Assembly (NCBI GenBank): GCA_964650645.1
Contig: CAZYUH010000001.1
Location: forward strand, 219,032-283,031
Source: an uncultured Candidatus Saccharibacteria bacterium
Lineage (GTDB): Bacteria > Patescibacteriota > Minisyncoccia > Phycocordibacterales > SBAW01
Length of the DNA stretch: 64,000 nucleotides
Direction of reading: 5' to 3'
Of the stretch, positions 2,323 through 53,714 are shown in pieces; positions within the stretch are counted from its first letter, which is position 1; every line of letters begins with the position of its first letter. The translations under genes and the position numbers were made by a program. The notes under the pieces are model-generated. The model worked only from the letters and a program-made list of their open reading frames with translations. It was not told the origin of the DNA and did no database searches.

Positions 2323-5214
2323 CTAGGCGCTCTCCGGCGCGGCGGGCGCCGGGGCAACAGGAGCGGGTTCGGGCTCGGGTTCGGGAGCGGCAGGCGTCTC
2401 GTCGGGAGCCTGCGCGCCGGCATCAGCGGGCGCCTCATCCGCATCCGCGTCGGCAGGGGTATCTGCGGGCGTTTCATCGGTGCCGGTATCGGCAGGCGCG
2501 TCCGCGGACGCTTCCGCATCAGCGTCGGGAACATCATCGCCGGTCCCGGAAGCCGGGGCCTCGCTTGTCCCAGGCACGGGCGGCGGAGTCGAGCCGCGCA
2601 TGCCCTGGCCGGAAAGCAGCTGCTGGAGCTCGTCGCCGGTCACGCATACGGGGGCGCCGGCGGATGTCTTGATACAGAGCTGGTCGGTCGTCACCTGCCT
2701 GCTCGTAAAGCTGTCCGCGAACCCGGCCACCGCCGCGGCGAGCGCGTCAATCTTGGAAGAGAGCGCTTGCACGGCCTTTATGATGGGCGCGATGAAGCCG
2801 ATGTAGTTGACGCCGAGCGTGCCGCCCGGAGTGAGCGCCGTGGGCGACGTGGTGGAGACGAGCGCCGGGAAGAGCTTCTGCACGTCCTGCGCGATGAAGC
2901 CTAGCTGCGGGCCGTCCTTCAGGCGGTCCTTCCACGCGAACGTGACGGGATCGAGGCGGTCTATGAGCGCGAGGGTGGACGAGGCGTCAAGCGACTCGAT
3001 ATCGGTCTTGAGCCGCTTGTCGGAGCTCTGGGTGAGCGTGCCGGAGAGCTGTGCATTGCCGCCGTTGAAGACCGCGAACACGGTGCTTGAGGCGCTGTTC
3101 ACTACGCTGAACGAAAGCGTCGAGGAGGCGGCGTCAGCGCCCCACACCGAGAGCCTTGCGTAGCCGGTGGTGGTGCCGACCGCGACGCGGTTGTTATCGA
3201 TGGTAACGGAGCCTCCGCCGCCGTTGAGCGTCAAAGACGACGACCCGAGGGTCGCGGTCGCGGTCGCGCTGCCGTCGGGACTGGTCTGTATGGTGACTGC
3301 GGGCGCAACCGAGTAATTGCCTGGCGAAATTATGGTGAAGGTGTTGACGAAATAGCGCGCGGACGAGAGCGTTGCGCCCGAGCCGGTGCCGCCCGTCAGC
3401 GTTATGGGCCCGAAGTTCGGCGAGGAGCACAGGCCTCCCGCGTTGCCGGTGGTGCCCGTTATGGCGCCGCCGCTGACCGACGTGACGCGGATTTGCGGCT
3501 GCGTGGAGCAGGTCCCTCCGGCGAGAGTGAGGACGTCGTTGACGCTGTAGCCCGTGCCGGCCGAACCGATAGTCCACTGCGAGAGCTTCATGGTGGCGAC
3601 CGCGGCGGACGCCTGCGACCCGCCTGAGGGCGGCGCGGCGATGTTCACGGTCGGGATGAACGAGTAGCTTCCCGTGGAGCCGACCGCGAGCGACGCCACG
3701 CCGCCCATCGCGCCGATGCTCGGGGTCGTCACCGACGAGGCGAACGCGCCGCCCAGCCCGTTGACGGAGAAGCCGGGCGAAGAGAACGGCTTGGAGGTGG
3801 AGGCCCATGTCCAGTTGTCCGAGAGGTCGATGCCGATGCCGCCGATGCAGCCGGTGTTGTACGAGTCCGCCACGCAGCCCAGTATCGTGGTGCTGGCGTT
3901 CGTCACGTTCTGCCCGCCGTCGGTCTTCCCGAGCTGGAATATGTGCTTCCACGGCGTGGTACCCACGAACGCCTCCGCAGCGTCGTCATAAATGCCCTGC
4001 ACGCCCTTTTTGGAGTGGAGGATGCCGAACGTGTGCCCCGAGCTGCTGCCCTCGTCGGCGCGCACGTCCACCTCTATGGGGTTGAGCGTGTACCAGTTCG
4101 TGGCATTGGGCCCGAGCTGGGCTATGGGATTGAAGGCGTTGCACGTTCCCGCCACGTTCGTGAAGCCCTCCGTGCCGTTGTCGTTGAAGCCGCAGTACAC
4201 GTAATCGGCGATGCCCACGTAGTACTGCCTGCCGTTGCCGGTGTTGCTCGTGGTGCCCTGCATGATCATGGAAATGTCGAGGCCGGCGCGCGACCCGGTC
4301 ATCCCGGCCCCGCCCCAGTTGCCGTCTATATGGACGACGCTGCCGTAATTGTCGCCCTGGTAGTCCAGGGTATCCGCGCTGCGGGTGAAGGAGACGCCGG
4401 CCAGGTGGTTGAACCCCGCGCCGCCGCTTCCCGAGAACCAGGTGACGATATTCGCCAGGTCCTTCGCGCCGTTCGCGAGCCCGGCGCTCATGGACAGCGT
4501 GCCGGCCTTCAAGCTCGTCGCGTACAGATTCGTCGAGGTGGCGTTCGTGGCGAAAAGCCGCGTACTCGTCGCGCTTGCCGCAAAGAAGTTCGTGCTCGTC
4601 GCGCTGGCGAATATGTTGCCGCCGGTGAAGGTGTGGTCCGCCGCCAAGTCGAAGGAAGAGCCGCTCGCTATCCCGAGGCTCGACGTGGACACGAGGGCGT
4701 AGCCGCCCGCGCCGTCGCCCATGAGGAGCTGCCCGTAAGCGGGAGCGGACGAGACGCCGGTGCCGCCCTGGGATACGCCGAGCAGCCCGGTCGCCGCGGC
4801 GAGGTCGGCGCCGGAGGAGTTGCTGGCGCGCGCGATGGAGCGGTGTATGGCGTCTATCTGGGCGCTGTACTGCGATTCGCTCAGCGCGGCAGGCGCGGCG
4901 GCAGGCGAGACATCGCCCGTCGCGGTTACCGCGAGCACCGAAGAAACGAGCACGGCGACGTCTTGGCGCAAGGCAAAGAGGCGCTGGTCGAGCTCATCCT
5001 GGCTGACAGGGCCGGTTGAAGCGCCGAGCACCGCTCCGGGCGCGGACGCCTCCGGGACGGCCTCGAAAGCAGCCGCTTGGGCGGCCGCCTGTACAGGCGC
5101 CGGAACCGGAGCGGCCGGCGCGGAATGGACAGGGACCATGACCGACGCGAAAGCGACAGCCGAAGTAATAAGGCCTGCGACTTTGATACTGAGAGAATGG
5201 AGCAGTTCGTGCAT
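2323..5214 (-). CDS. giant secreted fibre-like protein 1 with C-terminal Peptidase_S74 (endosialidase-type intramolecular chaperone) domain and acidic tail
   Basis: 963 aa with a signal peptide and a conserved N-module (DELDQRLFALRQDVA...SESQYSAQIDAIHRSI). The middle is Gly/Ser/Thr/Asn-rich and repetitive. The C-terminus has SSDKRLKTDIESL...GFIAQDVQKLFPALV...IGFIAPIIKAVQAL, typical of the S74 chaperone domain, then an 88-aa Asp/Pro/Ala/Glu-rich tail. Confidence 0.85.
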   Translation of the reverse strand: MHELLHSLSIKVAGLITSAVAFASVMVPVHSAPAAPVPAPVQAAAQAAAFEAVPEASAPGAVLGASTGPVSQDELDQRLFALRQDVAVLVSSVLAVTATGDVSPAAAPAALSESQYSAQIDAIHRSIARASNSSGADLAAATGLLGVSQGGTGVSSAPAYGQLLMGDGAGGYALVSTSSLGIASGSSFDLAADHTFTGGNIFASATSTNFFAASATSTRLFATNATSTNLYATSLKAGTLSMSAGLANGAKDLANIVTWFSGSGGAGFNHLAGVSFTRSADTLDYQGDNYGSVVHIDGNWGGAGMTGSRAGLDISMIMQGTTSNTGNGRQYYVGIADYVYCGFNDNGTEGFTNVAGTCNAFNPIAQLGPNATNWYTLNPIEVDVRADEGSSSGHTFGILHSKKGVQGIYDDAAEAFVGTTPWKHIFQLGKTDGGQNVTNASTTILGCVADSYNTGCIGGIGIDLSDNWTWASTSKPFSSPGFSVNGLGGAFASSVTTPSIGAMGGVASLAVGSTGSYSFIPTVNIAAPPSGGSQASAAVATMKLSQWTIGSAGTGYSVNDVLTLAGGTCSTQPQIRVTSVSGGAITGTTGNAGGLCSSPNFGPITLTGGTGSGATLSSARYFVNTFTIISPGNYSVAPAVTIQTSPDGSATATATLGSSSLTLNGGGGSVTIDNNRVAVGTTTGYARLSVWGADAASSTLSFSVVNSASSTVFAVFNGGNAQLSGTLTQSSDKRLKTDIESLDASSTLALIDRLDPVTFAWKDRLKDGPQLGFIAQDVQKLFPALVSTTSPTALTPGGTLGVNYIGFIAPIIKAVQALSSKIDALAAAVAGFADSFTSRQVTTDQLCIKTSAGAPVCVTGDELQQLLSGQGMRGSTPPPVPGTSEAPASGTGDDVPDADAEASADAPADTGTDETPADTPADADADEAPADAGAQAPDETPAAPEPEPEPAPVAPAPAAPESA
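2585..3165 (-). repeat. about 580-bp segment highly similar at DNA level to 17620-18265 (shared 3' coding block of the two giant genes; e.g. an identical 49-mer TTTTATGATGGGCGCGATGAAGCCGATGTAGTTGACGCCGAGCGTGCCG)
   Basis: Direct comparison of the two regions. The antisense ORFs in the track (2807-3163 vs 17824-18264) are also near-identical. Confidence 0.7.
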
Positions 5215-5221
5215 ACGGCAA

Positions 5222-5249
5222 AGGGCAGGGCCACGAGTGGCCCTGCCCT
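5222..5249. promoter_or_regulatory. perfect 28-nt palindrome (AGGGCAGGGCCAC..GTGGCCCTGCCCT) 7 nt upstream of the ATG of giant gene 1; a -10-like TATACT lies at 5260-5265 on the minus strand
   Basis: Read directly. Same architecture as upstream of giant gene 2 (22542-22569) and a related palindrome at 25679-25700. Confidence 0.6.
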
Positions 5250-5311
5250 GTTACCTGCTAGTATATGCCCTTCATGCGCGCGCAACCGCGGGCGTGGGGA
5301 TAACGCGCGAC

Positions 5312-6022: not shown

Positions 6023-6038
6023 AGGTGGAGTATAGCAA

Positions 6039-7703
6039 CTATAGAATATCGACGATGCGCACGCGCGGCGAGCCGCGCCAGTCGCGCTCGACGTGGCCCA
6101 CGACGTCTACCCTATCGCCCGTTGCGGCTTTTTTAGTGAACGACTCGGGCGTGGAGAAAAACGCGATGCCGTCCACGCGGGTGAACTCGTCCGCCAGGGA
6201 TACCTGCAGGTGGTTCTTCTGCTTGCCGAAGGTCTTTAAAGAGCCGACCGTCGCGTTGGGGAATATGAACAAGGGCTTCTGGTTGCCGATGCCGAAGGGT
6301 GCGAGCCGGTCGAGGTGGCCGAGCGTGCGCAGCAGCTCGGAGAGGTCGAGCTCGCGATCCACGACAACCTCTTTCGCGGAAGCGCCCTCTTTTTCCATCG
6401 CTTGGTACGCCCTGCTGAGCGCGCCGGGAAGCTCGTGCGCGCGCGACTCCTCAAGCGCGAACCCGCCCGACGCGGCGTGCCCGCCGCAGTGGTCGAACAC
6501 GCCCGCAGCGGCCTGCGCCGCATGCATCAGCTCGACGACGTTCGCAACGCCGTCCGAGCGGCAGCTGCCGCGCAGAAGCTCGCCGCCCTCGCGGCCCCAG
6601 ACGAACGCGGGCTTGCGGTGCGCCTCCACGAGCGAGTTGGCGACGAGCCCCAGTATCCCGGGCCGCCACGACGGGCTCCCTATGACGATGACTGGGCTTT
6701 CAGCCCCGCCGAGCGCGAGTCGCTTGTTGGCTTCCTTTACGGTCGTAGCAACGAGCGCCTTTCGCTCGTCGTTAATCTTGTTGCGCGCGCGCGCGAGCGC
6801 GCCCGCTTCCTCGGAGCTTTCCGTCGCAAGCAGCCGGGCCGCGGCCTCAGGGCTGTCCATGCGCGACGCGGCATTGATGCGCGGAGACACCATGAAGCCG
6901 ATGTCGTCCTCGGTGAGCGTGCGGGGCTGTATGCGCAAAAGCTTCAAGAGCGCCGCGAGCCCCGGCCTGCGCCCGCGGCGCATCACCCGCAGGCCGAACG
7001 CGCCCAGCATGCGGTTCTCTCCCACCAGGGGCACCATATCCGAAAGCGTGCCGATGCCCACCAAATCGAGGTACCATTTCTCCCTTCCTTCCGCGAATGT
7101 CTCCGGGCGGTATCTCGACAGCACGCCCTGCACCAGCTTCCACGCGACGCCCGCGCCGCACAGGCCGTCGAACGGGTACCTGCTCGCCTTGAGCTTAGGG
7201 TTGATGATCGCGAGCGCGTCGGGCAGGACGGCCGGCTCGAGGTGGTGGTCGGTGACGATGACGTCCATGCCGCGGGAATTCGCGTACGCTATCTGCTCTA
7301 CTTCAGTAGTGCCCAAATCGCAGGTAATAACGAGCTTGGTGCCCGCGGACGCCAGCTCCTCCAGTCCTTCTATATTGAGCCCGTAGCCCTCCTTGTGGCG
7401 GTGCGGGATGTAGTGGCGCACTGAAAGCCCCATCTCGCGCAGGAAGCCTGCGAGCATGACGCCGCCCGGCACGCCGTCGGCGTCGTAGTCGCTCCACACG
7501 CACACCGGCTCACTGCCCTTTATGGCAGCGATGATGCGCCCGACCGCCGCTTCCATGCCCGGCAATAAGAACGGGTCGTGGCTGTGCGCTACATAGTCGG
7601 GCTCCAGGAAGTCGGCGAAGCCCTCGGGCGCCACGCCGCGCGCGAGCATGAGGTGCTCGAGGAGGTTGTCGTGCAGCCGCTCCCGTACCACGTACTCTTT
7701 CAT
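6039..7703 (-). CDS. recJ: single-stranded-DNA-specific exonuclease RecJ
   Basis: 554 aa with DHH and DHHA1 motifs (VITDHH...). Confidence 0.85.
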   Translation of the reverse strand: MKEYVVRERLHDNLLEHLMLARGVAPEGFADFLEPDYVAHSHDPFLLPGMEAAVGRIIAAIKGSEPVCVWSDYDADGVPGGVMLAGFLREMGLSVRHYIPHRHKEGYGLNIEGLEELASAGTKLVITCDLGTTEVEQIAYANSRGMDVIVTDHHLEPAVLPDALAIINPKLKASRYPFDGLCGAGVAWKLVQGVLSRYRPETFAEGREKWYLDLVGIGTLSDMVPLVGENRMLGAFGLRVMRRGRRPGLAALLKLLRIQPRTLTEDDIGFMVSPRINAASRMDSPEAAARLLATESSEEAGALARARNKINDERKALVATTVKEANKRLALGGAESPVIVIGSPSWRPGILGLVANSLVEAHRKPAFVWGREGGELLRGSCRSDGVANVVELMHAAQAAAGVFDHCGGHAASGGFALEESRAHELPGALSRAYQAMEKEGASAKEVVVDRELDLSELLRTLGHLDRLAPFGIGNQKPLFIFPNATVGSLKTFGKQKNHLQVSLADEFTRVDGIAFFSTPESFTKKAATGDRVDVVGHVERDWRGSPRVRIVDIL

Positions 7704-7726
7704 GAGTATTTAGTATACTTAGGCGC

Positions 7727-14227: not shown

Positions 14228-14346
14228 CCCGCCCCGTTGAGCGCTTCTAAGCGCCGCTGTAACGTTCTCCCCAAATGCCCGTCTCAATAGGCGGGCATTT
14301 TCACGTATACTTTACCTACCTTCATATTCATTTAACCCAAACGACC

Positions 14347-17333: not shown

Positions 17334-20300
17334 TTACTGGGCCGCAGGAGCAGTCGCCGGTTCGGCGGCTGTTTCATTTGCGGCGGCGCTATCGCCCGAA
17401 GGGGCGGGCTCTTCAGCCGGCGCGGCCGGCTCTTCCTGCTCTGCATCCGCGCCCACGCTTGAGTCGGGCGCCTGCTCGGCAAGAGCCTCGTTTGCAGCCT
17501 CCTCGGAAGCGGGCGGCTCATCAGCGGCAGCATCATCTGACTCCGGGAACTGCGGCGTAGACGTCGCCTCAGAGGAAGGCTCTTCGGGCGCCGCGGGCTC
17601 GGGAGCGGGCGCAGGGGCCGAGCCCTGCATGCCCTGGCCCGCCAGGAGCCGCTGCAACTGCGCCTCGGTCACGCAGGTGCTGCCCACGCACAACTGGTCG
17701 GTCGCGTGCACCTCCTTGCTCGTAAAGCTCTCCGCGAATCCTGTCACGGCCGACGCGAGCATCTTTACCTGCTCGGCCAGGGCCTGGATGCCTTTTATGA
17801 TGGGCGCGATGAAGCCGATGTAGTTGACGCCGAGCGTGCCGTTGGGGGTGAGCGCCGTCGGCGACGTGGTGGAGACGAGGTCGGGGAACAATCTCTGCAC
17901 ATCCTGCGCGATGAAGCCTATCTGGAGCGCGCTCCCCTTGCTGCGGTCTATCCAGTTGAACGTGACCGGGTCGAGCTGCTCGAGCGCGGCCAGGGTAGTG
18001 GACGCGTCGAGCCCCACAACATTCTTCTTGAGCCTAGCGTCCGAGCTCTGGGTGAGCGTCCCCGAAAGCTGGGCATTGCCGCCGTTGAACACCGCGAACA
18101 CGGTGCTCGAGGCGCTGTTGACGATATTGAACGAAAGCGTGGAGGACGCTGCGTCCGAGCCCCACACGGTGAGCCTGCCGGAGGGCGAGGTAGTGCCGAC
18201 GCCGACGCTGCCCGCGGAAGTGATGCGCAGGCGCTCGTTGGCGTCCGCCGAGCCGCCGGTATAGAAGCGCAGGGCGCCCGCGCTGGCGCGCGCCATGACG
18301 GAGAGCCCGCCGGCAAGGGACGGACCGGAATCGATGAAGCCGCCGTTCTGGATGAACCCGCCCGATGTCGCCTTGCTTGCGCCGAACACGCCGACGCGCA
18401 GGGCGTTGCTGCTGCCAGCGGCGCTGCTGTTGCGCACCTGGAGCTCCGCCTGCCCTCCCGCGTTCGTGGCCGTAACATAGGACGCTATGGTGCTTGCCGT
18501 GCCGTACACCTCGAAGTTGGCCAGAGGCGAGTTCGTGCCCACGCCCACGGTTCCGCCCAGGTACGTATTGCCGGTGGTGGTGGCGTTGCCCGATATGACA
18601 AGGCCCGCAATGCCGTCGCCTATGGTCGAGGACGCGAACGCGGTAAGTCCGCCGTTGAACTGGGTCAAAGTCGAGGTCGCGTTGCCGGCAAGGCCGAACG
18701 GGTACGCCGCGCCGCTCCCGCCGCCCGCAGTGATGCACGTGCCGTTGACGGCAAAGCAGCCTGACGCGATGTTGATGCCGCCGGTGGTATTGAAGGTCGA
18801 GGTGGCGGTCGAAAAGTTGATGCCATTGCTGTTGCCGACCGAGAGGAGCGAGCCCGGCGTCGTGGTGCCGATGCCGACATTGCCGCCGGCGGCGAAGGTC
18901 GCGACGGTAGTGAGCGCGCCGCCGGAGCTCACCTGCTGGAGGTCGAAGCTTGCGTCATTGGTCGAGCGCGTATCGCTGTAGAACGCCCAGCCGTTCTTGC
19001 CGGTGTTGATGCGCTGGCCGCCCGTGCCGCTTGAATTGAAGTACAGGTTGAGGCCGAGGTTGGCCGCGGCGCCGCCGGAGCCGCCCACCTTGTAGCTGTA
19101 GATGAACGGGTTGGAGTTCGCATTGACCGTGTCGCGCGACACCAGGCCGATGCCGCCCACGCCGCTCCCGTGCGTGCTCGCCGCATCAAACGTACCCAGC
19201 GGGTTGGAGGTGCCGATGCCGACCCCGCCGCTCTTAGGCATCAGGCTTATGTTCACCGTCGCGTCGGTGCCGGTAGCGGCAAACGTGACCGCATTGCTCC
19301 CCGCCACGCCCGGCGTCAGCACGAAATAGTTGGTGTCTCCGGAGGTCGCGGGCGCGATGAGCTGGAGGAGCTTGTTCTCCTGCATGTAATCGGTCGACTT
19401 CACGCCGCGGATATCCAGGCCCGTCTTGGCGAATACGAGGTGCGTCTGGTTGTTCGGCGAGCCGCCGTTGGCCTGCGAGAATATCTGGCCGACCGTCGAG
19501 CTCGCGCCGCCTCCGTACTTGAAGTCGAGCATCTGGCCGTCGGCTATCTGCGCCCAAATTGAGCGATTGTTGGCATCCTCCAGGAGGGCGCCGTCCTGGA
19601 TCACGATGCCTTTCGCGAACACGTTGTCAGCAATAGCGCTCACCGAGTTAACGATGCCCAGCGCCACCGAGACCGGCTCTATGTCGTCCGCCGTATAGCC
19701 GTGGTACGTGTTGCCCGCAGCGACGTATGCGGCGTCCTCGCCGCCCACGCCCAGCCACAGGCCGGCCGTCGTGCCGTCCGAGCCCATGAGGTACGGGCTT
19801 ACGTTCACCAGCGGCTTGTAGGAGTTCGTGTCGAGCTCCATCGCGGTCGTGAACCTGTTGTCTTCCAGATGCGTCGCGTGGCCGTAGAACGCCCATGCCG
19901 TCTTCTTGGGCGTGCTCGTGCTGTTGTTAAGGGCGAACGCGGCGACGCCGATGGCGGCCGTATCGGTTGAGCTTCCGTCCACGTTGTCGGACGACCGGCT
20001 TGAGGCGGCTATGGCCACGCGCCCCTGGCCCGAAAGCACGCCCAATTGCGAGCGGGTGTCGTAGTAGCCCATGGTCGCCTCGCCGTCTATCCAGGACGCG
20101 ACGCCGTTAAGATACAGATCCCAGGTGTTCTTGTGGCCGGTGTTGCGGTAGTTGGAGCCGACAAAGAGGCGTCCGCCGACGCCCACGTTATTGACCGCGC
20201 CAGTGTCGGCCCAGTAGTTCGCGGTCGGCCTCGACAGTATCGAGCCGGTCGTCAGGCCCCCGCTGAAGTACCCGCTCCCCGTAACCGCGAAGGTGGCGCT

Positions 20301-22532
20301 CGGGGTGGTCGTTCCCACCGCGATGCTTCCGCCGAAGTACGCGTTGCCGGTGGTGGTCGCGCCGCCCGATATCGTAAGGCCGTTTGCCTGGGTACCGCTG
20401 CCTATAGTGGTGGAGGCGAGCGAGAGCAGGCCGCCGCTGAACGAAAGCCGGGTCGTAGTGGCATTGGAGGAGAACGGATAGGAGAATGCAAGCGCGCTGC
20501 CCGCGCTCAGGCACGTGCCGTTAACGGCGAAGCAGCCGCCCGCCAGGTTGATGCCGCCGGTCGAGTAAAAGGTCGAAGTAGCGGGCGTGAAGTTGGCGAC
20601 GCCGTTTACGGAGAGTATGGAGCCGGGCGTGGTGGTGCCAAGGCCGACAGAGCTTGCAACAAGGCTTCCGAAGCCTGAAGAGCCGTCCGTTACCTTGACG
20701 GAGGCCGCGCTGAGCCGCGCCAGGCCCGTATCGGCAGCGCCCGAAAACCCGAAGCCGGTCGCGCTGCTCCAGGAATACTGCCCGCCGGACGCCGTAACGA
20801 CCGTTCCGATATTATCCTGGTTGAAAAGCGTCCTGTACTCGGACAAGTCGGCATTCATGAAGCCGCCGCCGCTGCTGATAATAGGGTTGAACATCGCCAA
20901 CAGGCCGCTGAGCGTCAGCGATCCGTACTGCGCATCGTCGCCAGTGCGGACAACGAGGCCGTCGAGCCCTACGCTCGTATCGCTGGATTTAAGCTGGCCC
21001 GAATACAAGCCGTTAGCCAGCTTCACGCCGCCCGCATTGCCTATGTCGAGCCTTGCGGACGGGGCGCTGACGCCGATGCCCAGGTTCCCGCCTACATACG
21101 CGCTGCCGGTGGTGGTCGCGCCGCCCGAGACGGTGAGCCCGCCGGCCTGTGCGCCGCTCCCGACAGTGGTCGAGGCCAGGGAGAGAATGCCGCCGGAGAA
21201 CGTGAGCTTAGTGGACGTCGCATTCGAGACGAACGGGTACGCGGCGATAGCGGGGGTACCCGTGAGCTGGCCGTACGGCAGAGAGAGATTCGGGAGAGTG
21301 ATAATGCTCGCGACAGAGCTAGTGGCTGCAAGCTGGGTGACGAAGCGCGGGTCGAAGAGCGAGTTGAAGGTCGTGGTGTAGACCCCGTTGGTTACCGTGC
21401 CCGCGTTGCCGGTGATGGAGCCGGTGACGGTGTTGCTGAAGGTGTTGGTGCCACTGAACGTGTTGTTGTTTGCAAGGAGCGTGGAGGAGGCCGCCGCGAC
21501 GGTGATGTCCGCCGTGCCGTCGAAGGTGACGCCGTTGATGGTGCGAGGGGTCTGGAGGGCGGTGGCGGTCGAGGCGTTGCCGGTGAGCGAGCCGCTCAAT
21601 CCGCCACTGAACGTAATCAAAGTCGAAGTGGCGTTGCTGGGGAACGGGTACGCCGCCACGTCGGCAGACGTGAGGTAGTCGGTGCCCGCCACCGCGGCAG
21701 ACACGACGCCGCCGACGGTCTTCAGGAGCGCGCTTGGAATGCCCGAAACAGCCAAGCCGGCCGTCGAGACGTAATCAGCAGAAACGGCGGTAGTGCTCGC
21801 AAAGCCGACCGTGAGGCGGTCCGCGGCACTGTTGTAGGTAAAGCCCGCGTCGCCGCCGAAGTCGCCCGCGTCGTTGAACTGGACCTGCGCGCTGGACCCG
21901 CCCGGCGTGCCCGAGCCCGAGCCCGCAATGTCGTCGGCGCACACGACGTTGCCGGACGCGTCAGCGGTGAGCTTGCCGCCGTTATCAAGCGCGCTACAGT
22001 CGGCATTAAGCGCGATGCCCGCCAGGGTCGAGGTGGCCGAAACGGTGAGAGTGCCCGCAAGCGTCCCTCCTGAGAGCGGCAGGTAGTCGAGCGCCGGGAT
22101 GTCGGCGGCGGTAAGGCTTGAGAAATCAGCGATGCCGCCGGACGAAGAGCGGCTGATGGCCCGGTAAATCGAATCGATCTGCGACTCGTACTGGGATTCG
22201 GTTATAAAGGAAGGCTGGCTCTGGCCCCAGGAAAGCTGGACGATAAGCGAACCCGCAAGCGTCGCCACGTCCTGGCGCAATGCGTACAGCCGCTCATCGA
22301 GTTCTTTATGAGTAACGACATCGGACGTCTCTTCGCCCAGCACCTGCCCCGCCGAAGGGGCAACGGGGAACGTTCCGTACGCAGGCGCCGAATACGCGAT
22401 TCCAATCGCGAAAGGAGCCGGGGCCGGAGGAGCGGCAGGCGGCACTGCGGGAGCGAATATGGAAAGCGCGCCCAAAGCGGAAGCCGCCAGCGCGGCGAAC
22501 TTACCGGAAAGCGTATCGATAAAGGGATGCAT
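17334..22532 (-). CDS. giant secreted fibre-like protein 2 with C-terminal Peptidase_S74 intramolecular-chaperone domain and acidic tail (paralogue of 2323-5214)
   Basis: About 1732 aa. Start preferred at the ATG (MHPF...) by analogy with gene 1; the track begins 3 codons upstream at a TTG (22541). Same N-module (ELDERLYALRQDVA...ESQYESQIDSIYRAI), internally duplicated NATST / AAYPF..NAT.T.L.FSGG repeats, and a C-terminal SSDARLKKNVVGL...GFIAQDVQRLFPDLV... block followed by a 94-aa acidic tail. Confidence 0.85.
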   Translation of the reverse strand: MHPFIDTLSGKFAALAASALGALSIFAPAVPPAAPPAPAPFAIGIAYSAPAYGTFPVAPSAGQVLGEETSDVVTHKELDERLYALRQDVATLAGSLIVQLSWGQSQPSFITESQYESQIDSIYRAISRSSSGGIADFSSLTAADIPALDYLPLSGGTLAGTLTVSATSTLAGIALNADCSALDNGGKLTADASGNVVCADDIAGSGSGTPGGSSAQVQFNDAGDFGGDAGFTYNSAADRLTVGFASTTAVSADYVSTAGLAVSGIPSALLKTVGGVVSAAVAGTDYLTSADVAAYPFPSNATSTLITFSGGLSGSLTGNASTATALQTPRTINGVTFDGTADITVAAASSTLLANNNTFSGTNTFSNTVTGSITGNAGTVTNGVYTTTFNSLFDPRFVTQLAATSSVASIITLPNLSLPYGQLTGTPAIAAYPFVSNATSTKLTFSGGILSLASTTVGSGAQAGGLTVSGGATTTGSAYVGGNLGIGVSAPSARLDIGNAGGVKLANGLYSGQLKSSDTSVGLDGLVVRTGDDAQYGSLTLSGLLAMFNPIISSGGGFMNADLSEYRTLFNQDNIGTVVTASGGQYSWSSATGFGFSGAADTGLARLSAASVKVTDGSSGFGSLVASSVGLGTTTPGSILSVNGVANFTPATSTFYSTGGINLAGGCFAVNGTCLSAGSALAFSYPFSSNATTTRLSFSGGLLSLASTTIGSGTQANGLTISGGATTTGNAYFGGSIAVGTTTPSATFAVTGSGYFSGGLTTGSILSRPTANYWADTGAVNNVGVGGRLFVGSNYRNTGHKNTWDLYLNGVASWIDGEATMGYYDTRSQLGVLSGQGRVAIAASSRSSDNVDGSSTDTAAIGVAAFALNNSTSTPKKTAWAFYGHATHLEDNRFTTAMELDTNSYKPLVNVSPYLMGSDGTTAGLWLGVGGEDAAYVAAGNTYHGYTADDIEPVSVALGIVNSVSAIADNVFAKGIVIQDGALLEDANNRSIWAQIADGQMLDFKYGGGASSTVGQIFSQANGGSPNNQTHLVFAKTGLDIRGVKSTDYMQENKLLQLIAPATSGDTNYFVLTPGVAGSNAVTFAATGTDATVNISLMPKSGGVGIGTSNPLGTFDAASTHGSGVGGIGLVSRDTVNANSNPFIYSYKVGGSGGAAANLGLNLYFNSSGTGGQRINTGKNGWAFYSDTRSTNDASFDLQQVSSGGALTTVATFAAGGNVGIGTTTPGSLLSVGNSNGINFSTATSTFNTTGGINIASGCFAVNGTCITAGGGSGAAYPFGLAGNATSTLTQFNGGLTAFASSTIGDGIAGLVISGNATTTGNTYLGGTVGVGTNSPLANFEVYGTASTIASYVTATNAGGQAELQVRNSSAAGSSNALRVGVFGASKATSGGFIQNGGFIDSGPSLAGGLSVMARASAGALRFYTGGSADANERLRITSAGSVGVGTTSPSGRLTVWGSDAASSTLSFNIVNSASSTVFAVFNGGNAQLSGTLTQSSDARLKKNVVGLDASTTLAALEQLDPVTFNWIDRSKGSALQIGFIAQDVQRLFPDLVSTTSPTALTPNGTLGVNYIGFIAPIIKGIQALAEQVKMLASAVTGFAESFTSKEVHATDQLCVGSTCVTEAQLQRLLAGQGMQGSAPAPAPEPAAPEEPSSEATSTPQFPESDDAAADEPPASEEAANEALAEQAPDSSVGADAEQEEPAAPAEEPAPSGDSAAANETAAEPATAPAAQ
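17620..18265 (-). repeat. partner copy of the 2585-3165 repeat
   Basis: As above. Confidence 0.7.
18480..20624 (-). repeat. two about 125-aa internal coding repeats inside giant gene 2 (about 20268-20624 and about 18480-18863), plus a partial third copy near 21040-21250
   Basis: Protein-level repeat GS(I/L)LSV...F..ATSTF..TGGIN.A.GCFAVNGTC..AG...YPF...NAT.T.L.F.GGL...AS.TIG.G...GL.ISG.ATTTGN.Y.GG. Coordinates approximate. Confidence 0.6.
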
Positions 22533-22541
22533 ACACGGCAA

Positions 22542-22569
22542 AGGGCAGAGCCGTGCACGGCTCTGCCCT
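22542..22569. promoter_or_regulatory. perfect 28-nt palindrome (AGGGCAGAGCCGTG/CACGGCTCTGCCCT) 9 nt upstream of the ATG of giant gene 2; -10-like TATACT about 22580-22585 on the minus strand
   Basis: Read directly (coordinates +/-2). The arms differ from the gene-1 copy but stay self-complementary. Confidence 0.6.
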
Positions 22570-22727
22570 GATAGCGTTTAGTATATGGCCTTATTTTGCA
22601 AAGAAAAATCGTACATGGGGATAAGTACGGCCTACATTTTGACATACACCGTCTAGCGTTGCAGAGAGGGTGTTTTGTTGCTACTCTGAGGCTGTGCCTT
22701 TCACTAAAAAACTCATGATTCCTTTCT

Positions 22728-25528: not shown

Positions 25529-25560
25529 GGGGGCCAGTATAGCAAACCCCTTGTTTTTGT

Positions 25561-25678: not shown

Positions 25679-25700
25679 AGGGCGGCCACATGGCCGCCCT
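25679..25700. promoter_or_regulatory. palindrome AGGGCGGCCA-CA-TGGCCGCCCT with the same AAAGGGC...GCCCTG flanks as the giant-gene palindromes, about 50 nt upstream of tRNA-Trp
   Basis: Read directly. Followed by TTTGC like the other two copies. Confidence 0.45.
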
Positions 25701-25932
25701 GTCGCACATACTCAGCCCGTGTATTTAGGGTCTTGTTCGCGCCAGTATTCCGAGCGCTCCCTTTCCTTCTCCTGCCTTTTACGGCGTGATTGCGTCTTCT
25801 CAAGGTCGCTTTCCTTCAAGGACGCTTCCCTGCTCTCTTTTTCTTCAGGCATCGTTCCCTCTTTCGATGGAAGTACTGTCTCACGCACGCGCACACTATC
25901 CTCAACCGATACTACCACCAATTATTCGCAAA

Positions 25933-27401: not shown

Positions 27402-27770
27402 GTTCCACGTGAACCCTAACAGTATATTGTTTCATATGAAACATATATGCAGACTTAGACTTTAAAAGTCGCCTCAGAGACGTCTTTTAGTACACATGTC
27501 CCCAATTTTATCCACAGTTGTCCCCAAATGTCTTGTCCCTGAAGGGCTTTACTGTCCACACCTCTGGCGCGATAGGGGAAAGTGCTTTGTGGTAGTCGCG
27601 AGTCGGTACCGCAAGAAGGGACTTAGCGTCTTCTGGTCAGGCGTTCAAAAGCCGCCGTCGCGGCTTTTGCCGCACGACCCTGCCTCGCGGATTCGCCTGC
27701 TGGCGAATCAACGCTCCGGCTCACATCTAAGCACAAAACCTGCCGCAGGGCAGGTTTTGAGTCTAAGATG

Positions 27771-29464: not shown

Positions 29465-29954
29465 AACTGTCCTTTCTGTCTTATAAACACAGTTATCCCC
29501 ACGGCTGTCCTTTACGTTGTCTTTTAAAGCGCGTACTATCAACTGCAGAGAGCGATTACATACTCACTCGAACCACTCTTCAAGTTGTTTGAATGACTAC
29601 CGTAAGTCAGGAGTTCTTTCCACAACAAGTTTTATGTCACGCCTTGCCCTGTGCGCAGACATAAGACAACAGGAATCTGCAGGTTCCTGGTGTCGCTTTA
29701 CGAACACTCTTTAGGAAGGAGGATGTAAATCCCTCACCCTTCTAAAAAATGGATTAACACATCCGCGCAACCGCTTGTCCGACCGAGGATCAACGGCCAA
29801 GTAAAAAAAGAATGCTCATAAAGTACCGACACGAAAACAAGCCACCGCACGAGGATACATAAAAACTCCACCCTCTACCGGTGGCTTTTGTATTTTCCAG
29901 GACCGCAGAAGTCGGAAGCCTTGAGTCCGGGGAAGGGAAGCGGTAACATCCCTT

Positions 29955-30467
29955 TTATACAAGCCCCTCAAGGCGAACCGAAAGGCTCCTCATTGCATCC
30001 CGCAGGGATTTCCGCTCAGAAAGGCTCAACTCTTCAAGACAGGCCTTGCCGGCATACCGGGCGACCTGCGCATACAGCTCTTTTTCGGGCACATGTCCCA
30101 AAATCGCGTCAAAATCCTGAATTAGGGAGGGTAAAGTGCTTTCAAGAGTCCTGTTTGCCTCTTTTGCCTCCTCTAGGCGCTTGTCGGTCAGCTTTTTTAG
30201 CTCAAGCGGATGAGTCGGGGCAAAAACGGATACTTTGCCCGGCTCGTCCTTTCTGGACACCAACCCCAGCGTTTCAAGCTCATCCAGCACCTTATAGCTG
30301 AGCGTTCGGGGCACCCCGGCCAAGAAGGCAAGGCGGGTGGCCTTCTGCGGTCCTCGCTGTATGAGCACTTCATAAATAGTAGCTTGATGGGTCGTAAGCC
30401 CCGCTTGAGCCAACGCGTGACGAACCCCCTCGCTAGTTGCCTTGTAGTCAATGGCCACGCAACCCAC
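29955..30467 (-). CDS. winged-helix transcriptional regulator (TrmB/MarR-like)
   Basis: N-terminal wHTH (ATIYEVLIQRGPQKATRLAFLAGVPRTLSYKVLDELETLGLVSR) with a coiled C-terminal domain. Sits in a lower-GC patch. Confidence 0.5.
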   Translation of the reverse strand: MGCVAIDYKATSEGVRHALAQAGLTTHQATIYEVLIQRGPQKATRLAFLAGVPRTLSYKVLDELETLGLVSRKDEPGKVSVFAPTHPLELKKLTDKRLEEAKEANRTLESTLPSLIQDFDAILGHVPEKELYAQVARYAGKACLEELSLSERKSLRDAMRSLSVRLEGLV

Positions 30468-30552
30468 TCTACACCCATTTTAGTATTTTGTCACAAACTA
30501 GTTACAAAAATATTTTTCAAATAGAAGCAAAGTATTTTGTTGGTATACAAAT

Positions 30553-32803: not shown

Positions 32804-32929
32804 GCTTACAGTATACGTCGCAAAATATCGCGAGCCCGCCCCGGAGGCGGGCCGGGAAGGCCTTGCGTAAAAGTCCCGCCTGTGCTATGCTTATTGACAC
32901 AGGGCGAAAACGCTTCTGTTTATATAAAA

Positions 32930-42098: not shown

Positions 42099-43292
42099 TT
42101 ATATCCGCGCCCCTTCGCCGTACGCGCCGAGCGGATTCGTCGCGCCGCGCACCTCGAAGTGCAGGTGGTTGCCGGTCGACTCGCCGGTCGACCCGACGCG
42201 GCCGATGTTCGCGCCCTGCGTGACGGTCGCGCCGACCGTAGTAAGCACGCTGCTCATGTGCGCGTACAAAGTCTGCGCGCCGTTGGGGTGCCTGATGACG
42301 ACGTAGCTTCCGTACCCGCCATTGTAGCCGCCGGTCTTCGCGACGATGACCGTGCCGCCCGCCGCCGCGTACACGGGCGTGCCGTTCGGCGCGCCGATGT
42401 CGATGCCGTTGTAGCCGTGGATGGACTGCGTGATGATGCCGTGCACCGGAAGGCCGAAGTAGCCGGAGAGCGCGAGGCCCGTTCCGCTGGCGCCCGGCTC
42501 GGGCTTCTTCGCGGGCGTCGCGCTCTTTGCGGGCGCGGCGGCCTTCTTCGCAACCGACGGGCTCTTCGCCGCGGCGGGCGTCGCGACCGACGTCTCGACG
42601 TTGGGGATGAGTATGGACGCGCCCGCGACGAGGTCGGCATCGGAGCCCAGGTCGTTGTACTGCCGGATGTCGTACGCGTCGGACTTCATATCCTTCGCGA
42701 TTCCGGCGATGGTGTCGCCCGCTTTTACCGTGTAGCGCACGCCGGTAATGGGGAGGATGACGAGCTCCTGGCCCGGATGAATGGGCTTGCCCTGGAGCTC
42801 GTTGGCGCCGGTAATGGTGCCGACCGTAACGCCGAACATGTGCGCGATGCCCGAGAGCGTGTCGCCTTCGCGCACGGTGTAGACGGAGATGCTGTAGGAC
42901 ACGGGACGGGCGCCGATGTCGGCCGAGGTGCCTGAAGGGCCGTCCTGGGGCACCAGCGCGGAGCCGTCCACCACATGGATGTCGCCGCCGCCGACCGACG
43001 GGTTAGGGTCGAGGTTGGTGGCCGGGGCCAGTATGGGCACGGTCTGGGAGTTAAAGGATTCAGACTGCGCGCTCGCCTGGGGAATGATGCTCGAAAGGAG
43101 GGATGCTATGGAAAAGAAGCCGGCAGAGGCTACCGCGGGAGCGAAGAGTCCCCAAGACGACCCGCCGACCAAGGCAAGGCACATAAAGGCTTTTTTGAAC
43201 TTCGCCACGAGCGATTGCCGATCCGCCGGAGAAGGAATGGGGGGTTTAGGTAACAATGGGTGTTTTGGCCTGATTCCTGCGTTATTCCGCAA
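42099..43292 (-). CDS. M23-family peptidoglycan endopeptidase with LysM domains
   Basis: Two LysM repeats (YTVREGDTLSGIA..., YTVKAGDTIAGIA...). M23 motifs HGYNGIDIGAPNGTPVYAAAGGTV and HLHFEV. Confidence 0.85.
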   Translation of the reverse strand: MRNNAGIRPKHPLLPKPPIPSPADRQSLVAKFKKAFMCLALVGGSSWGLFAPAVASAGFFSIASLLSSIIPQASAQSESFNSQTVPILAPATNLDPNPSVGGGDIHVVDGSALVPQDGPSGTSADIGARPVSYSISVYTVREGDTLSGIAHMFGVTVGTITGANELQGKPIHPGQELVILPITGVRYTVKAGDTIAGIAKDMKSDAYDIRQYNDLGSDADLVAGASILIPNVETSVATPAAAKSPSVAKKAAAPAKSATPAKKPEPGASGTGLALSGYFGLPVHGIITQSIHGYNGIDIGAPNGTPVYAAAGGTVIVAKTGGYNGGYGSYVVIRHPNGAQTLYAHMSSVLTTVGATVTQGANIGRVGSTGESTGNHLHFEVRGATNPLGAYGEGARI

Positions 43293-43457
43293 AATATGGC
43301 TCTATTGAGCCATATTTAGCTCCCTCACCTGTACATATACAACTGTAGCCAGCATGAATTGGGGCGTCAACTGCCTAAAATGAACAGCCCCCGCAAAACG
43401 GGGGTAAAAAGTGGAAAAATCCTAGTAAATAAAGGGGTTTCGGGGTACTTTAGATAT

Positions 43458-52583: not shown

Positions 52584-52604
52584 ACAGGATATATACTAAA
52601 GGGG

Positions 52605-53048
52605 ATGGCGCAGTACCAAGTACCCCAGTTCATCGAGGTCGAAGACAAGATATTCGGCCCGCTTACCCTCAAGCAGTTCATCTACCTCGCCGGCGCGGGT
52701 GGGCTCGCGCTCCTGTGCTTCACGCTCCTGCCGCTCTTCCTCGCCCTGCCGCTTGCCGGCCTTGCAGGCGGCATCGGGGCAGGGTTCGCGTTCTATAAAG
52801 TGAACGGAAGGCCGCTCATCGTCGCCGCAGAGCACGGCTTCAGCTACCTCTTGGGCAACAAGCTCTACCTGTGGAAGCAGCGCGAGGCGAGGGCGGAGCC
52901 GGTTGAAGCGAAGAAAGAGGCCGCCGACCCGTCCACCATTACCGTGCCGAGGCTCAGCCAGAGCCGGCTCAAGGACCTGTCCTGGTCGCTCAACATCAAG
53001 GACCAGAACCAGCCCCAGAACGCCGCGCGCGGCAATCTCCAACTATAA
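52605..53048 (+). CDS. small two-TM membrane protein (VirB3/PrgI-like)
   Basis: 147 aa with a hydrophobic hairpin LKQFIYLAGAGGLALLCFTLLPLFLALPLAGLAGGIGAGFAFY. It sits immediately upstream of the VirB4 ATPase, as VirB3 does. Confidence 0.5.
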   Translation: MAQYQVPQFIEVEDKIFGPLTLKQFIYLAGAGGLALLCFTLLPLFLALPLAGLAGGIGAGFAFYKVNGRPLIVAAEHGFSYLLGNKLYLWKQREARAEPVEAKKEAADPSTITVPRLSQSRLKDLSWSLNIKDQNQPQNAARGNLQL

Positions 53049-53050
53049 CC

Positions 53051-53704
53051 ATGGCAACCCAAGCATCCCAGGCTAAGGCGGCGCAGGACTTCGTCCCCAT
53101 AAAGGAGGTGCGCAACGGCATCGTGATACTTAAGGACGGCAGCCTGCGCGCGCTCCTCATGGCCTCCTCCATAAACCTCGCGCTCAAGTCCCAGGACGAG
53201 CAGCAGGCGATAATCGGGCAGTTCCAGAACTTCCTCAACTCGCTCGAGTTCACGGCGCAGTTCTTCGTCGAGAGCCGCGACCTCGACATCCGCCCCTACA
53301 TCGCCCTCCTGGAGGACCGTTACGCCAAGGAGCTCGACGACCTCATGCGCATCCAGATACGCGAGTACATCGCGTTCATCAAGGACTTCACCGAGCGCGC
53401 CAACATCATGTCGAAGAACTTCTTCATCGTCGTGCCGTACGACCCGGCGTTCGCCGCGCGCGGGAAGGGGATCTCGTCGGTGTTCTCGGGCGGCGGCGCG
53501 GCCTCCGCGGCCATGAGCGACGAGCAGTTCGAGCAGTACCGCACCCAATTGGAGCAGCGCGTCGCGGTCGTCGAGCAGGGGCTGGTCCGCACCGGCGTGC
53601 GCGTCGTCGAGCTGGGCACCGAGGAGGTCATCGAGCTCTTCTACAAGCTCTTCAACCCCGGGGAGCTCGAAAAGCCGCTCCAGGTAACGCAGATACCCCG
53701 CTAA
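53051..53704 (+). CDS. VirB4/TrbE-family ATPase, N-terminal domain encoded as a separate ORF
   Basis: KEVRNGIVILKDGSLRALLMASSINLALKSQDEQ... matches the conserved VirB4 N-domain (CagE_TrbE_VirB). Stops 10 nt before the ATPase ORF, which is in another frame. Confidence 0.6.
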   Translation: MATQASQAKAAQDFVPIKEVRNGIVILKDGSLRALLMASSINLALKSQDEQQAIIGQFQNFLNSLEFTAQFFVESRDLDIRPYIALLEDRYAKELDDLMRIQIREYIAFIKDFTERANIMSKNFFIVVPYDPAFAARGKGISSVFSGGGAASAAMSDEQFEQYRTQLEQRVAVVEQGLVRTGVRVVELGTEEVIELFYKLFNPGELEKPLQVTQIPR

Positions 53705-53714
53705 GCACAGACCT

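What the first reader, a model, noticed from the sequence alone, without database searches (positions are those of the whole stretch)
5215..5265. Shared, SD-less leader architecture upstream of both giant genes: -10 TATACT, then 9-10 nt, then a perfect 28-nt palindrome, then TTTGCCGT(GT)ATG; arms show compensatory changes
Upstream of gene 1 (5222-5249) and gene 2 (22542-22569) sit perfect palindromes, AGGGCAGGGCCAC/GTGGCCCTGCCCT and AGGGCAGAGCCGTG/CACGGCTCTGCCCT. The outer halves are identical (AAAGGGCAG ... CTGCCCTG). The inner halves differ but both remain self-complementary. Each is followed by TTTGCCGT and then the ATG 7-9 nt later. Each is preceded by a -10-like TATACT, which puts the hairpin at or near the mRNA 5' end. 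No Shine-Dalgarno is present. A third member, AGGGCGGCCA-CA-TGGCCGCCCT at 25679-25700, has the same AAAGGGC/GCCCTG flanks plus TTTGC. Preservation of pairing despite sequence change argues for a selected RNA stem-loop (5' stabiliser, translational gate or thermosensor) or a dimeric operator, co-regulating the two fibre genes.
Basis: seen in the sequence. Interest (0 to 1): 0.65.

Follow-up and report, generated by a model that had tools for sequence, protein, structure and literature searches.

The report
Terminator-like leader hairpin before fibre genes
Two large surface-fibre genes of a tiny-genome (CPR/Patescibacteria) bacterium share a conserved control module: a DnaA-box-like site, a promoter, then a very stable terminator-shaped RNA hairpin at the start of the message, just before the start codon. 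It is a real, previously undescribed but structurally simple regulatory element whose exact job is still open.

Summary
On the minus strand, gene 1 (2323-5214, 963 aa) and gene 2 (17334-22532, 1732 aa) both carry a Peptidase_S74 C-terminal domain. Each is preceded by TATACT, 10 nt, a 12-bp GC-rich hairpin (about -26 kcal/mol), TTTGCCGT(GT), then ATG.

The module is longer than reported. An invariant TTATCCCCA lies 29-30 nt upstream of the -10. It matches the DnaA-box type that clusters around dnaA/dnaN in this same window.

Relatives keep the box, the -10, the 9-10 nt spacing and the hairpin. These are four strain-level orthologues of gene 1 and three copies in a 49-51% GC contig. They show compensatory pairs and G·U pairs on the sense strand only, so this is an RNA element rather than an operator or a REP element.

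The genome is mostly leaderless and lacks Shine-Dalgarno sites, so "SD-less" is not special here. What is special is the order promoter, then terminator-like hairpin, then AUG.

All nine copies score as intrinsic terminators, and weaker stems carry longer U-tails. The best reading is a leaky terminator/insulator that also caps the mRNA 5' end. The split between these two roles is unresolved.

The "third member" (25679-25700) is an ordinary terminator. There is no Rfam match.

The parts
5295..5303 (-). TTATCCCCA box (DnaA-box-like), 29 nt upstream of the gene 1 -10. It is the upstream edge of the conserved module.
   Evidence: Invariant in all six aligned leaders. Exact TTATCCMCA occurs 5 times in the window against 0.25 expected. 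The same box type clusters around dnaA/dnaN.
5260..5265 (-). -10 hexamer TATACT of the gene 1 promoter. The predicted TSS is about 5251-5253.
   Evidence: TATACT occurs 20 times against 5.9 expected. The same hexamer sits 6-8 nt before the start codon of many leaderless genes here. It is conserved as TATACT, TACAAT, TATGTT or TATAGT in relatives.
5222..5249 (-). Leader hairpin of gene 1: 12 bp plus a CUCG loop, with the base of the stem being A-GGGCAG...CUGCCC-U.
   Evidence: CM hit of 61.5 bits.
5215..5221 (-). U-rich tail (U)UUGCCGU between the hairpin and the AUG of gene 1.
   Evidence: Terminator discriminant score.
2323..5214 (-). Gene 1: a 963-aa surface fibre protein with an N-terminal signal anchor and a C-terminal Peptidase_S74 domain.
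   Evidence: Syntenic orthologues.
22616..22624 (-). TTATCCCCA box, 30 nt upstream of the gene 2 -10, in the divergent intergenic region shared with rny (RNase Y).
   Evidence: Strain-level divergence stops just 5' of the box; only the 3 nt directly upstream of it (TAC) are also invariant.
22580..22585 (-). -10 hexamer TATACT of the gene 2 promoter. The predicted TSS is about 22571-22573.
22542..22569 (-). Leader hairpin of gene 2: a perfect 28-nt palindrome that folds as 12 bp plus a UGCA loop.
   Evidence: CM hit of 58.3 bits. Invariant in 10 strain contigs.
22533..22541 (-). U-rich tail (U)UUGCCGUGU between the hairpin and the AUG of gene 2.
17334..22532 (-). Gene 2: a 1732-aa surface fibre protein with a signal anchor, repeated fibre modules and a C-terminal Peptidase_S74 domain.
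   Evidence: The C-terminal 200 aa are 70% identical to gene 1, and part of the N-terminal region is 42% identical.
25679..25700 (-). Not part of the module. This is an ordinary intrinsic terminator (GGGCGGCCA-UG-UGGCCGCCC + UUUUGCUUUG) after a 69-aa ORF (25712-25921) and before the tRNA-Gly promoter.
   Evidence: (24 bits).

Best explanation
The element is a cis-acting RNA hairpin of the intrinsic-terminator type. A conserved promoter places it at the very 5' end of each fibre mRNA.

The module reads: DnaA-box-like site (about -50 to -42), then a -10 (TATACT), then a TSS predicted 7-9 nt further on, then 2-3 unpaired nt, then a 12-13 bp GC-rich stem-loop, then a U-run, then AUG 6-9 nt after the stem.

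Proposed mechanism:
1. RNA polymerase starting at the fibre promoter, or reading through from the upstream rnhA operon in the case of gene 1, meets a hairpin + U-tract within the first 40 nt. A fraction of transcripts end there. This is a leaky gate or insulator that keeps these very long, costly genes at a set, low or factor-dependent level.
2. Transcripts that pass keep a 5'-terminal stem-loop with only 2-3 free nucleotides. This is the known recipe for protection against 5'-end-dependent decay by RppH, RNase J, RNase E or RNase Y.
3. Translation starts without an SD on the unstructured U-rich stretch.
4. The upstream box probably gives both genes a common transcriptional input, with DnaA as the obvious candidate.

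Shown: the sequence anatomy, conservation, covariation, strand asymmetry, terminator-like scores, and restriction to fibre genes.

Inferred: the TSS position, actual termination, stabilisation, and DnaA binding.
For: Promoter:
- TATACT is 3.4-fold enriched.
- It lies 6-8 nt upstream of the start codon of at least 13 leaderless genes in this window. The same hexamer 10 nt before the hairpin therefore predicts a TSS 2-3 nt before the stem.
- The -10 keeps TAnnnT in all nine copies, and the spacer keeps 9-10 nt while its sequence diverges.

RNA hairpin:
- Stability is -19 to -27 kcal/mol in eight copies and -16 in one degenerate copy.
- Double compensatory changes occur at stem positions 8, 9, 11 and 12.
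- There are G·U pairs only on the sense strand, and the antisense fold is 2.3-4.8 kcal/mol weaker wherever the palindrome is imperfect.

Terminator shape:
- UUU directly after the stem is invariant.
- All nine copies score positive (17-37) on a d'Aubenton-Carafa-type discriminant (formula recalled from memory). Ten genuine 3'-end terminators of the same genomes score 19-52.
- Stem strength and U-tail score are inversely related (r = -0.95, n = 9, not independent). This holds even among contigs of 62-65% GC, as expected if overall termination strength is held in a range.
- For gene 1 and its orthologues, no other terminator lies between the rnhA stop and the hairpin.

Specificity:
- There are only two copies in 64 kb, both before fibre genes, and one per 17-23 kb in syntenic loci.
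- Three more copies lie before fibre-type genes in a 49-51% GC contig labelled Candidatus Saccharibacteria.

Footprint:
- In 10 strain contigs, divergence upstream of gene 2 stops just 5' of the box (3 nt before it).
- Gene 1 spacers are almost randomised between strains, but the box, -10 and hairpin persist.

Background on 5' hairpins and RppH/RNase J requirements: PMC3997798.
Against: - There are no transcript data. The TSS is inferred only by analogy with the leaderless genes.
- In this window's own genome the U-tract is poor (UUUGCCGU, 4 U in 8) and fails a simple terminator scan, so termination may be weak here.
- A strong terminator directly after its own promoter (U6-U7 in L006, L007 and L192) would nearly silence the gene unless an unknown antitermination factor exists.
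- No alternative structure is possible in such a short leader, so any regulation would need a trans factor that I could not identify.
- Gene 2 has no co-directional upstream gene, so an insulator role cannot be the whole story.
- The strong sequence conservation of the outer stem (CAGGGCAG/CUGCCCUU in 8 of 9 copies) is needed neither for termination nor for stabilisation, and it remains unexplained.
- The nine copies are phylogenetically few: effectively two lineages.
- The fibre genes on three other CPR contigs examined (L189, L191, L193) lack the module. A fourth, L190, keeps a TTATCCACA box but no hairpin.
Confidence: 0.5

Rival explanations
1. Pure 5'-terminal mRNA stabiliser. The hairpin exists only to block 5'-end-dependent decay of very long transcripts, and the U-rich stretch is just an unstructured, SD-independent ribosome landing site. 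Termination is negligible.
For: The -10 to hairpin spacing is fixed at 9-10 nt in all nine copies despite diverged spacer sequence. This is predicted by a need for 3 or fewer free 5' nt, but not by attenuation. The genes are 2.9-6 kb long. RNase Y is encoded next door. The principle is established (PMC3997798). The U-tract is weak in the window genome.
Against: It does not explain the invariant UUU abutting the stem, the U6-U7 runs in GC-rich relatives, or the inverse relation of stem strength and U-tail. It also does not explain conservation of the outer stem sequence.
Confidence: 0.25
2. Factor-dependent attenuator. The hairpin is an efficient terminator, and fibre expression needs a dedicated antiterminator, for example one recruited at the conserved box, in the way that Q acts at lambdoid PR'-tR', or a NusG paralogue.
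For: Several copies have terminator-grade scores with U6-U7 tails. The outer stem and the upstream box are conserved in sequence, suggesting recognition by a factor. The genes are long and related to phage tail fibres (S74 domain).
Against: No candidate antiterminator was found in the window. Loop sequences are not conserved (CUCG, UGCA, UUCG, AUCC, GCGA). The box is more simply explained as a DnaA box.
Confidence: 0.12
3. DNA operator. A dimeric repressor binds the inverted half-sites AGGGCAG/CTGCCCT, which overlap +3 to +30.
For: The outer 7-8 bp are conserved as sequence in 8 of 9 copies. The position just downstream of the TSS is typical for a roadblock repressor.
Against: The inner 10-14 nt keep complementarity through compensatory and G·U changes, which a protein site does not require. 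The half-site spacing varies, with total length 28, 29 or 30 nt. G·U asymmetry favours the sense RNA. The T-run lies on one side only.
Confidence: 0.07
4. Nothing special. The hairpins are ordinary terminators of upstream genes or members of a generic palindromic repeat (REP-like), and the TATACT is coincidental.
For: Ordinary terminators in these genomes can look similar, with CAGGGC...GCCCTTTTGCTTT. Gene 1's hairpin is the only terminator candidate after rnhA.
Against: Gene 2's copy has a divergent upstream gene (rny), so there is nothing to terminate. The usual order in this lineage is terminator, then TATACT, then start codon; here it is reversed in all nine copies, with fixed spacing. There are only two copies in 64 kb, both before fibre genes.
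Confidence: 0.05

Closest known systems
5'-terminal stabilising stem-loops (E. coli ompA and papA leaders; B. subtilis aprE- and ermC-type 5' stabilisers)
   Same: A stable hairpin within a few nucleotides of the predicted 5' end of the mRNA. The expected effect is a block to RppH/RNase J/RNase E entry (PMC3997798).
   Different: Here the stem sequence is conserved across paralogues and lineages. The hairpin is followed directly by a U-run and ends only 6-9 nt before an SD-less AUG. The 5' end is predicted, not mapped.
Intrinsic (Rho-independent) terminators and leader attenuators (e.g. S10, trp, pyr and bgl leaders)
   Same: A GC-rich stem, a U-tract immediately 3' of it, and discriminant scores in the range of genuine terminators of the same genomes.
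   Different: It sits at about +3 to +40, right after its own promoter. There is no room for an alternative antiterminator fold and no leader peptide. One copy (gene 2) has no upstream gene to terminate.
Lambdoid phage late-gene control (PR' promoter, nearby terminator tR', Q antiterminator bound at a promoter-proximal DNA site)
   Same: A promoter followed closely by a terminator ahead of long structural, tail-fibre-type genes, with a conserved DNA box next to the promoter. This comparison rests on my own knowledge, not on a tool result.
   Different: No Q-like protein was identified. The distance is much shorter. The box looks like a DnaA box. The analogy is a lead only.
DnaA boxes and DnaA-controlled promoters
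   Same: TTATCCCCA or TTATCCACA matches the 9-mer consensus TTATCCACA. The same variants cluster around dnaA/dnaN in this window.
   Different: It is a single box at about -45 of a surface-protein gene, not a cluster. Binding was not tested.
REP/BIME-type repeated extragenic palindromes
   Same: A GC-rich imperfect palindrome in an intergenic region.
   Different: There are two copies in 64 kb, both 5' of fibre genes with a fixed promoter spacing. They are not scattered at 3' ends.

Membership tests
Intrinsic terminator | GC-rich stem-loop immediately followed by a U-tract on the transcribed strand | tested here: met
   All nine copies have an invariant UUU abutting the stem, with 4-7 U in the first 8 nt. 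Discriminant scores are 17-37, against 19-52 for ten genuine terminators. The two window copies are the weakest and fail the stricter scan.
Intrinsic terminator | Lies at the 3' end of a transcription unit | tested here: inconclusive
   The gene 1 copy follows rnhA on the same strand with no other terminator in between. The gene 2 copy follows a divergent gene. In all copies a -10 lies upstream of the hairpin.
Intrinsic terminator | Causes transcript release | not testable with these tools
   Needs Term-seq or in-vitro transcription.
5'-terminal mRNA stabiliser stem-loop | Hairpin begins within about 0-4 nt of the mRNA 5' end | tested here: inconclusive
   The -10 to stem distance is 9-10 nt in nine copies. 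Leaderless genes of the same genome place the start 6-8 nt after the -10, so 2-3 free nt are predicted. The TSS is not mapped.
5'-terminal mRNA stabiliser stem-loop | Lengthens mRNA half-life | not testable with these tools
   Needs decay measurements with stem mutants.
Palindromic operator of a dimeric DNA-binding protein | Conserved half-sites at a fixed spacing, with a spacer free to vary without keeping complementarity | tested here: not met
   The half-sites are conserved. However, total length is 28, 29 or 30 nt, and the inner part keeps pairing through compensatory and G·U changes.
REP-like or mobile repeated palindrome | Many dispersed copies, typically at gene 3' ends | tested here: not met
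   CM search gives two strong hits in 64 kb and one each in the 17-kb and 23-kb syntenic loci, all 5' of fibre genes. The whole genome was not available.
RNA thermometer or start-codon-masking gate | SD or AUG sequestered in a marginally stable structure | tested here: not met
   The AUG lies 6-9 nt 3' of the stem and stays unpaired in the centroid fold of every copy (a few MFE folds add a weak extra helix over it). The stem is 12 GC-rich bp at about -26 kcal/mol.
Any described RNA family (Rfam 15) | Match at or near a family's gathering score | tested here: not met
   At the gathering threshold the window gives only tRNAs. Permissive scans of both leaders give only chance hairpin matches at 12-22 bits against cut-offs of 45-100.
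DnaA box | 9-mer matching TTATCCACA, of the type used at the organism's own origin or dnaA region | tested here: met
   TTATCCCCA is present upstream of both genes, and TTATCCACA in the lower-GC relative. Seven box-like 9-mers lie in 62336-62531 (dnaA-dnaN spacer), including ATATCCCCA and TTATCCCCT, and three lie in 60907-60966. Binding itself is not testable here.

The most novel reading that the evidence does not exclude
The module is a dedicated expression switch for the attachment fibres of ultra-small (CPR) bacteria. A promoter-proximal terminator keeps the long fibre genes off. A factor recruited at the conserved box opens the gate and makes RNA polymerase processive over 3-6 kb. That factor could be DnaA itself, coupling fibre production to the replication cycle, or a Q/RfaH-like antiterminator inherited with the phage-tail-fibre-like genes.
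Probability: 0.15. Interest if true: 0.7.

Novelty: new variant of a known kind. Interest (0 to 1): 0.45.

Why it matters
Almost nothing is known about gene regulation in CPR/Patescibacteria, which mostly cannot be grown alone. Their large surface fibres are prime candidates for host attachment.

This module is compact and conserved: box, promoter, terminator-like 5' hairpin, SD-less AUG. It sits in front of fast-evolving fibre genes in a genome that otherwise uses leaderless mRNAs. That gives a concrete, testable handle on how these genes are controlled.

It also shows an unusual arrangement, with a terminator-shaped hairpin placed at the first nucleotides of the transcript. Finally, the leaderless TATACT promoter rule seen here is useful for annotating such genomes.

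Tried and rejected
1. A protein search with the N-terminal 172 aa of gene 2 gave no hit.
It returned only unrelated hairpins and terminators; none had the -10, box and ATG together. The viral scan gave the same result.
3. The GTDB scan with the TATACT-anchored pattern found a single contig. The exact-match pattern will miss diverged copies, such as those in L007 and L192.
4. MAFFT alignments of the hairpins were not structure-consistent for copies of different stem length. I therefore counted pairs from per-sequence folds instead of using count of structure pairs.
5. The fibre genes on three other CPR contigs examined (L189, L191, L193) lack the module. L190 has a TTATCCACA box but no hairpin.
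6. Rejected readings: REP or mobile element; recombinase site (recombination between the two copies would delete or invert 17 kb of housekeeping genes); RNase III site (the stem is too short, by my own knowledge); thermosensor.
7. The apparent upstream GTAGG similarity between the two window copies is not conserved among strains.

Full report
**What is there**

The features lie on the minus strand. Gene 1 (2323-5214, 963 aa) and gene 2 (17334-22532, 1732 aa) encode proteins with an N-terminal signal anchor, fibre-like repeats and a C-terminal Peptidase_S74 (endosialidase-chaperone) domain. Their C-terminal 200 aa are 70% identical, and part of the N-terminal region is 42% identical.

Read in gene direction, both have this layout:

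| Element | Gene 1 | Gene 2 |
|---|---|---|
| TTATCCCCA box | 5303-5295 | 22624-22616 |
| Distance box to -10 | 29 nt | 30 nt |
| -10 TATACT | 5265-5260 | 22585-22580 |
| Spacer | 10 nt | 10 nt |
| Hairpin | 5249-5222 | 22569-22542 |
| Tail | UUGCCGU | UUGCCGUGU |
| AUG | 5214 | 22532 |

The gene 2 palindrome is a perfect 28-mer. The gene 1 palindrome is 13+2+13. Both fold as 12 bp plus a tetraloop at -25.5 to -26.3 kcal/mol for the leader RNAs (59-60-nt constructs give z about -4.4 to -4.5, and no shuffle of 200 is as stable).

**Is it more than chance?**

A loose pattern, AGGGC-N10-24-GCCCT, is not enriched by itself (4 found, 2.5 expected). The full architecture is unique, however:
- A covariance model scores the two sites at 61.5 and 58.3 bits. 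The next sense hit in the window scores 24 bits.
- A generic scan for a -10-like hexamer followed at 7-12 nt by a stem of at least 9 bp finds the canonical version only at these two genes.
- Exact TTATCCMCA occurs 5 times against 0.25 expected.

**Genomic setting**

The window is ordinary chromosome from a small-genome bacterium:
- The genes include recJ, rnhA, pgk, tpiA, a type IV pilus ATPase, nusA, tig, clpP, rny, hup, tRNAs, a T4SS-like cluster, yidC, dnaA and dnaN.
- The same proteins occur on a 754,089-bp NCBI contig.
- Relatives of the fibre proteins are labelled Patescibacteria, Paceibacterota or Kaiserbacteria.
- The only GTDB representative contig with the exact motif is labelled Candidatus Saccharibacteria.

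The genome is largely leaderless. TATACT is enriched 3.4-fold. At least 13 genes have a TATACT/TACTAT/TACAAT-type -10, often preceded by TTGC, ending 6-8 nt before the start codon, with hardly any Shine-Dalgarno sequences anywhere. So "SD-less" is the background state. What sets the fibre genes apart is that the same -10 is followed by a hairpin-containing leader instead of by the start codon.

**Conservation**

Gene 1 has syntenic orthologues (rnhA, fibre, comEC) at 74-84% aa identity. The neighbouring PGK and RNase Y are 90-100% identical, so these are close strains with a fast-evolving fibre locus.

Among these strains the intergenic spacers are almost randomised. Even so, TTATCCCCA is invariant, the -10 is TATACT (TACAAT in L007), the spacing is 9-10 nt, and the hairpin is kept.

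For gene 2, ten strain contigs show divergence that stops just 5' of the box; only the 3 nt directly upstream of it are also invariant. The hairpin itself is invariant.

A contig of 49-51% GC carries three further copies in front of tandem fibre-type genes:
- L008:160-192 and L008:417-449 have the same outer stem (CAGGGCAG...CUGCCCUUU), a different inner stem, and an ATG 8 nt after the conserved CUGCCCUUU.
- One of those two has TTATCCACA 40 nt before TATACT.
- L192:484-524 is a degenerate copy with a U7 tail.

The fibre genes on three other CPR contigs examined lack the module.

**RNA, not DNA**

Per-sequence folds give these pair types:

| Stem position | Pair types seen |
|---|---|
| 8 | G-C, A-U, G·U |
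| 9 | G-C, G·U, U-A |
| 11 | C-G, G-C |
| 12 | A-U, G-C, C-G |

Five copies contain G·U pairs on the sense strand. In exactly these five, the antisense fold is weaker by 2.3-4.8 kcal/mol. The four perfect palindromes are equal on both strands within 0.5 kcal/mol. The T-run is on the sense side only. Total length varies between 28, 29 and 30 nt. Together these points argue against a protein operator and for a sense-strand RNA structure.

**Terminator shape**

UUU directly after the stem is invariant. Several relatives have U6-U7. On a d'Aubenton-Carafa-type discriminant (formula from memory, used only for relative comparison), all nine leaders score 17-37. Ten genuine 3'-end terminators from the same genomes score 19-52.

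Stem strength and U-tail score are inversely related (r = -0.95, n = 9, not independent), even among contigs of 62-65% GC. This suggests that overall termination strength is held within a range.

Ordinary terminators of this lineage can look similar (CAGGGC...GCCCUUUUGCUUU). They occur in the usual order: terminator, then TATACT, then leaderless start. In the fibre leaders the order is reversed. It follows a 69-aa ORF and precedes the tRNA-Gly promoter.

**Mechanism**

I commit to a terminator-type hairpin placed at the extreme 5' end of the transcript, with two roles:
- It acts as a leaky gate or insulator. For gene 1 it is also the only terminator candidate for the upstream recJ-rnhA unit.
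- It caps read-through mRNAs with a 5' stem-loop that leaves only 2-3 free nucleotides, a known protection against 5'-end-dependent decay (PMC3997798).

The two pieces of evidence pull in different directions, and I cannot separate them in silico:
- The fixed -10 to stem spacing is what a 5'-end function predicts.
- The invariant, compensating U-tail is what a termination function predicts.

The strong sequence conservation of the outer stem is explained by neither. It may point to a trans factor.

The upstream box matches the DnaA-box consensus. The same variants, including CCCC forms, cluster in the dnaA-dnaN spacer (seven in 62336-62531) and at 60907-60966. DnaA is therefore the obvious candidate for a shared transcriptional input, though this is untested.

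**Comparison with known systems**

There is no Rfam family match. Full-text searches found no paper on leaderless or leader architecture or on S74 fibres in CPR bacteria.

The element works like a 5' stabiliser hairpin and/or a leader terminator. It is a new, narrowly distributed motif with an unusual placement, not a new principle. A Q/RfaH-like antitermination switch remains possible but unsupported.

**Verdict**

- Interest is moderate.

Noticed in passing
window-wide, e.g. 6029-6034(-), 7712-7717(-), 25536-25541(-), 32810-32815(-), 52592-52597(+): The genome is largely leaderless. A (TTGC)TATACT-type -10 sits 6-8 nt before the start codon of at least 13 genes, and Shine-Dalgarno sequences are almost absent. 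This is useful for start-codon annotation in this lineage.
   Followed up: partly
window 62336-62531 and 60907-60966: There are clusters of DnaA-box-like 9-mers. Seven lie in the dnaA-dnaN spacer, which is probably oriC. Three lie inside the 5' part of the longest dnaA ORF (60815-62335), which suggests the real dnaA start codon is further downstream.
   Followed up: partly
window 27508-27526 and 29493-29501: Further exact boxes occur here: TTATCCACA next to TTGTCCCCA, and TTATCCCCA. They lie in lower-GC stretches without convincing ORFs, about 27410-27770 and 29465-30550. The first ends in a terminator-like hairpin just before tRNA-Arg. Neither has an Rfam match, so unannotated non-coding RNAs are possible.
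   Followed up: partly
window 43289-43320: An AT-rich palindrome, AAATATGGCTC-N4-GAGCCATATTT, sits exactly between the divergent M23-peptidase and uvrD-like genes and abuts both TTG start codons. It could be an operator.
   Followed up: no
proteins P0020, P0021, P0025, P0028-P0031, P0098 and others; L008:456-4373: Many related CPR fibre proteins begin with a conserved cytoplasmic HTH-like domain (...DYIxxLCRxGKI...WYVD..., Pfam HTH_17 in some), followed by a membrane segment and a giant extracellular fibre. That is a membrane-tethered DNA-binding architecture. The two window genes lack this domain.
   Followed up: no
window 2323-5214 versus L002, L005, L006, L007: Gene 1 is hypervariable between strains (74-84% aa identity, intergenic spacers randomised), while the neighbouring PGK and RNase Y are 90-100% identical. 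This is consistent with diversifying selection or recombination at the fibre locus.
   Followed up: partly
L192:6640-7140 = L008:1-480: This is a tandem duplication of the leader module. The first copy is followed by only a truncated 5' remnant of a fibre ORF, and the second by the full 1305-aa gene. The 3' end and 3' UTR of the fibre genes are also repeated (L192:200-262 and 6640-6700).
   Followed up: partly
window 52605-59176: A type IV secretion-like cluster is present, with PrgI-like, VirB4/TraG-type ATPase and T4SS pilin proteins plus several proteins without Pfam matches. Other fibre-gene contigs (L189, L191, L193) carry relaxase, ArdC and TrwB-like genes.
   Followed up: no
window 14260-14311: The longest-ORF start ATG at 14275 lies inside a terminator hairpin (AAATGCCCGTC...GGCGGGCATTT), which is followed by TATACT at 14306-14311. 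The real start of this gene is probably downstream.
   Followed up: no
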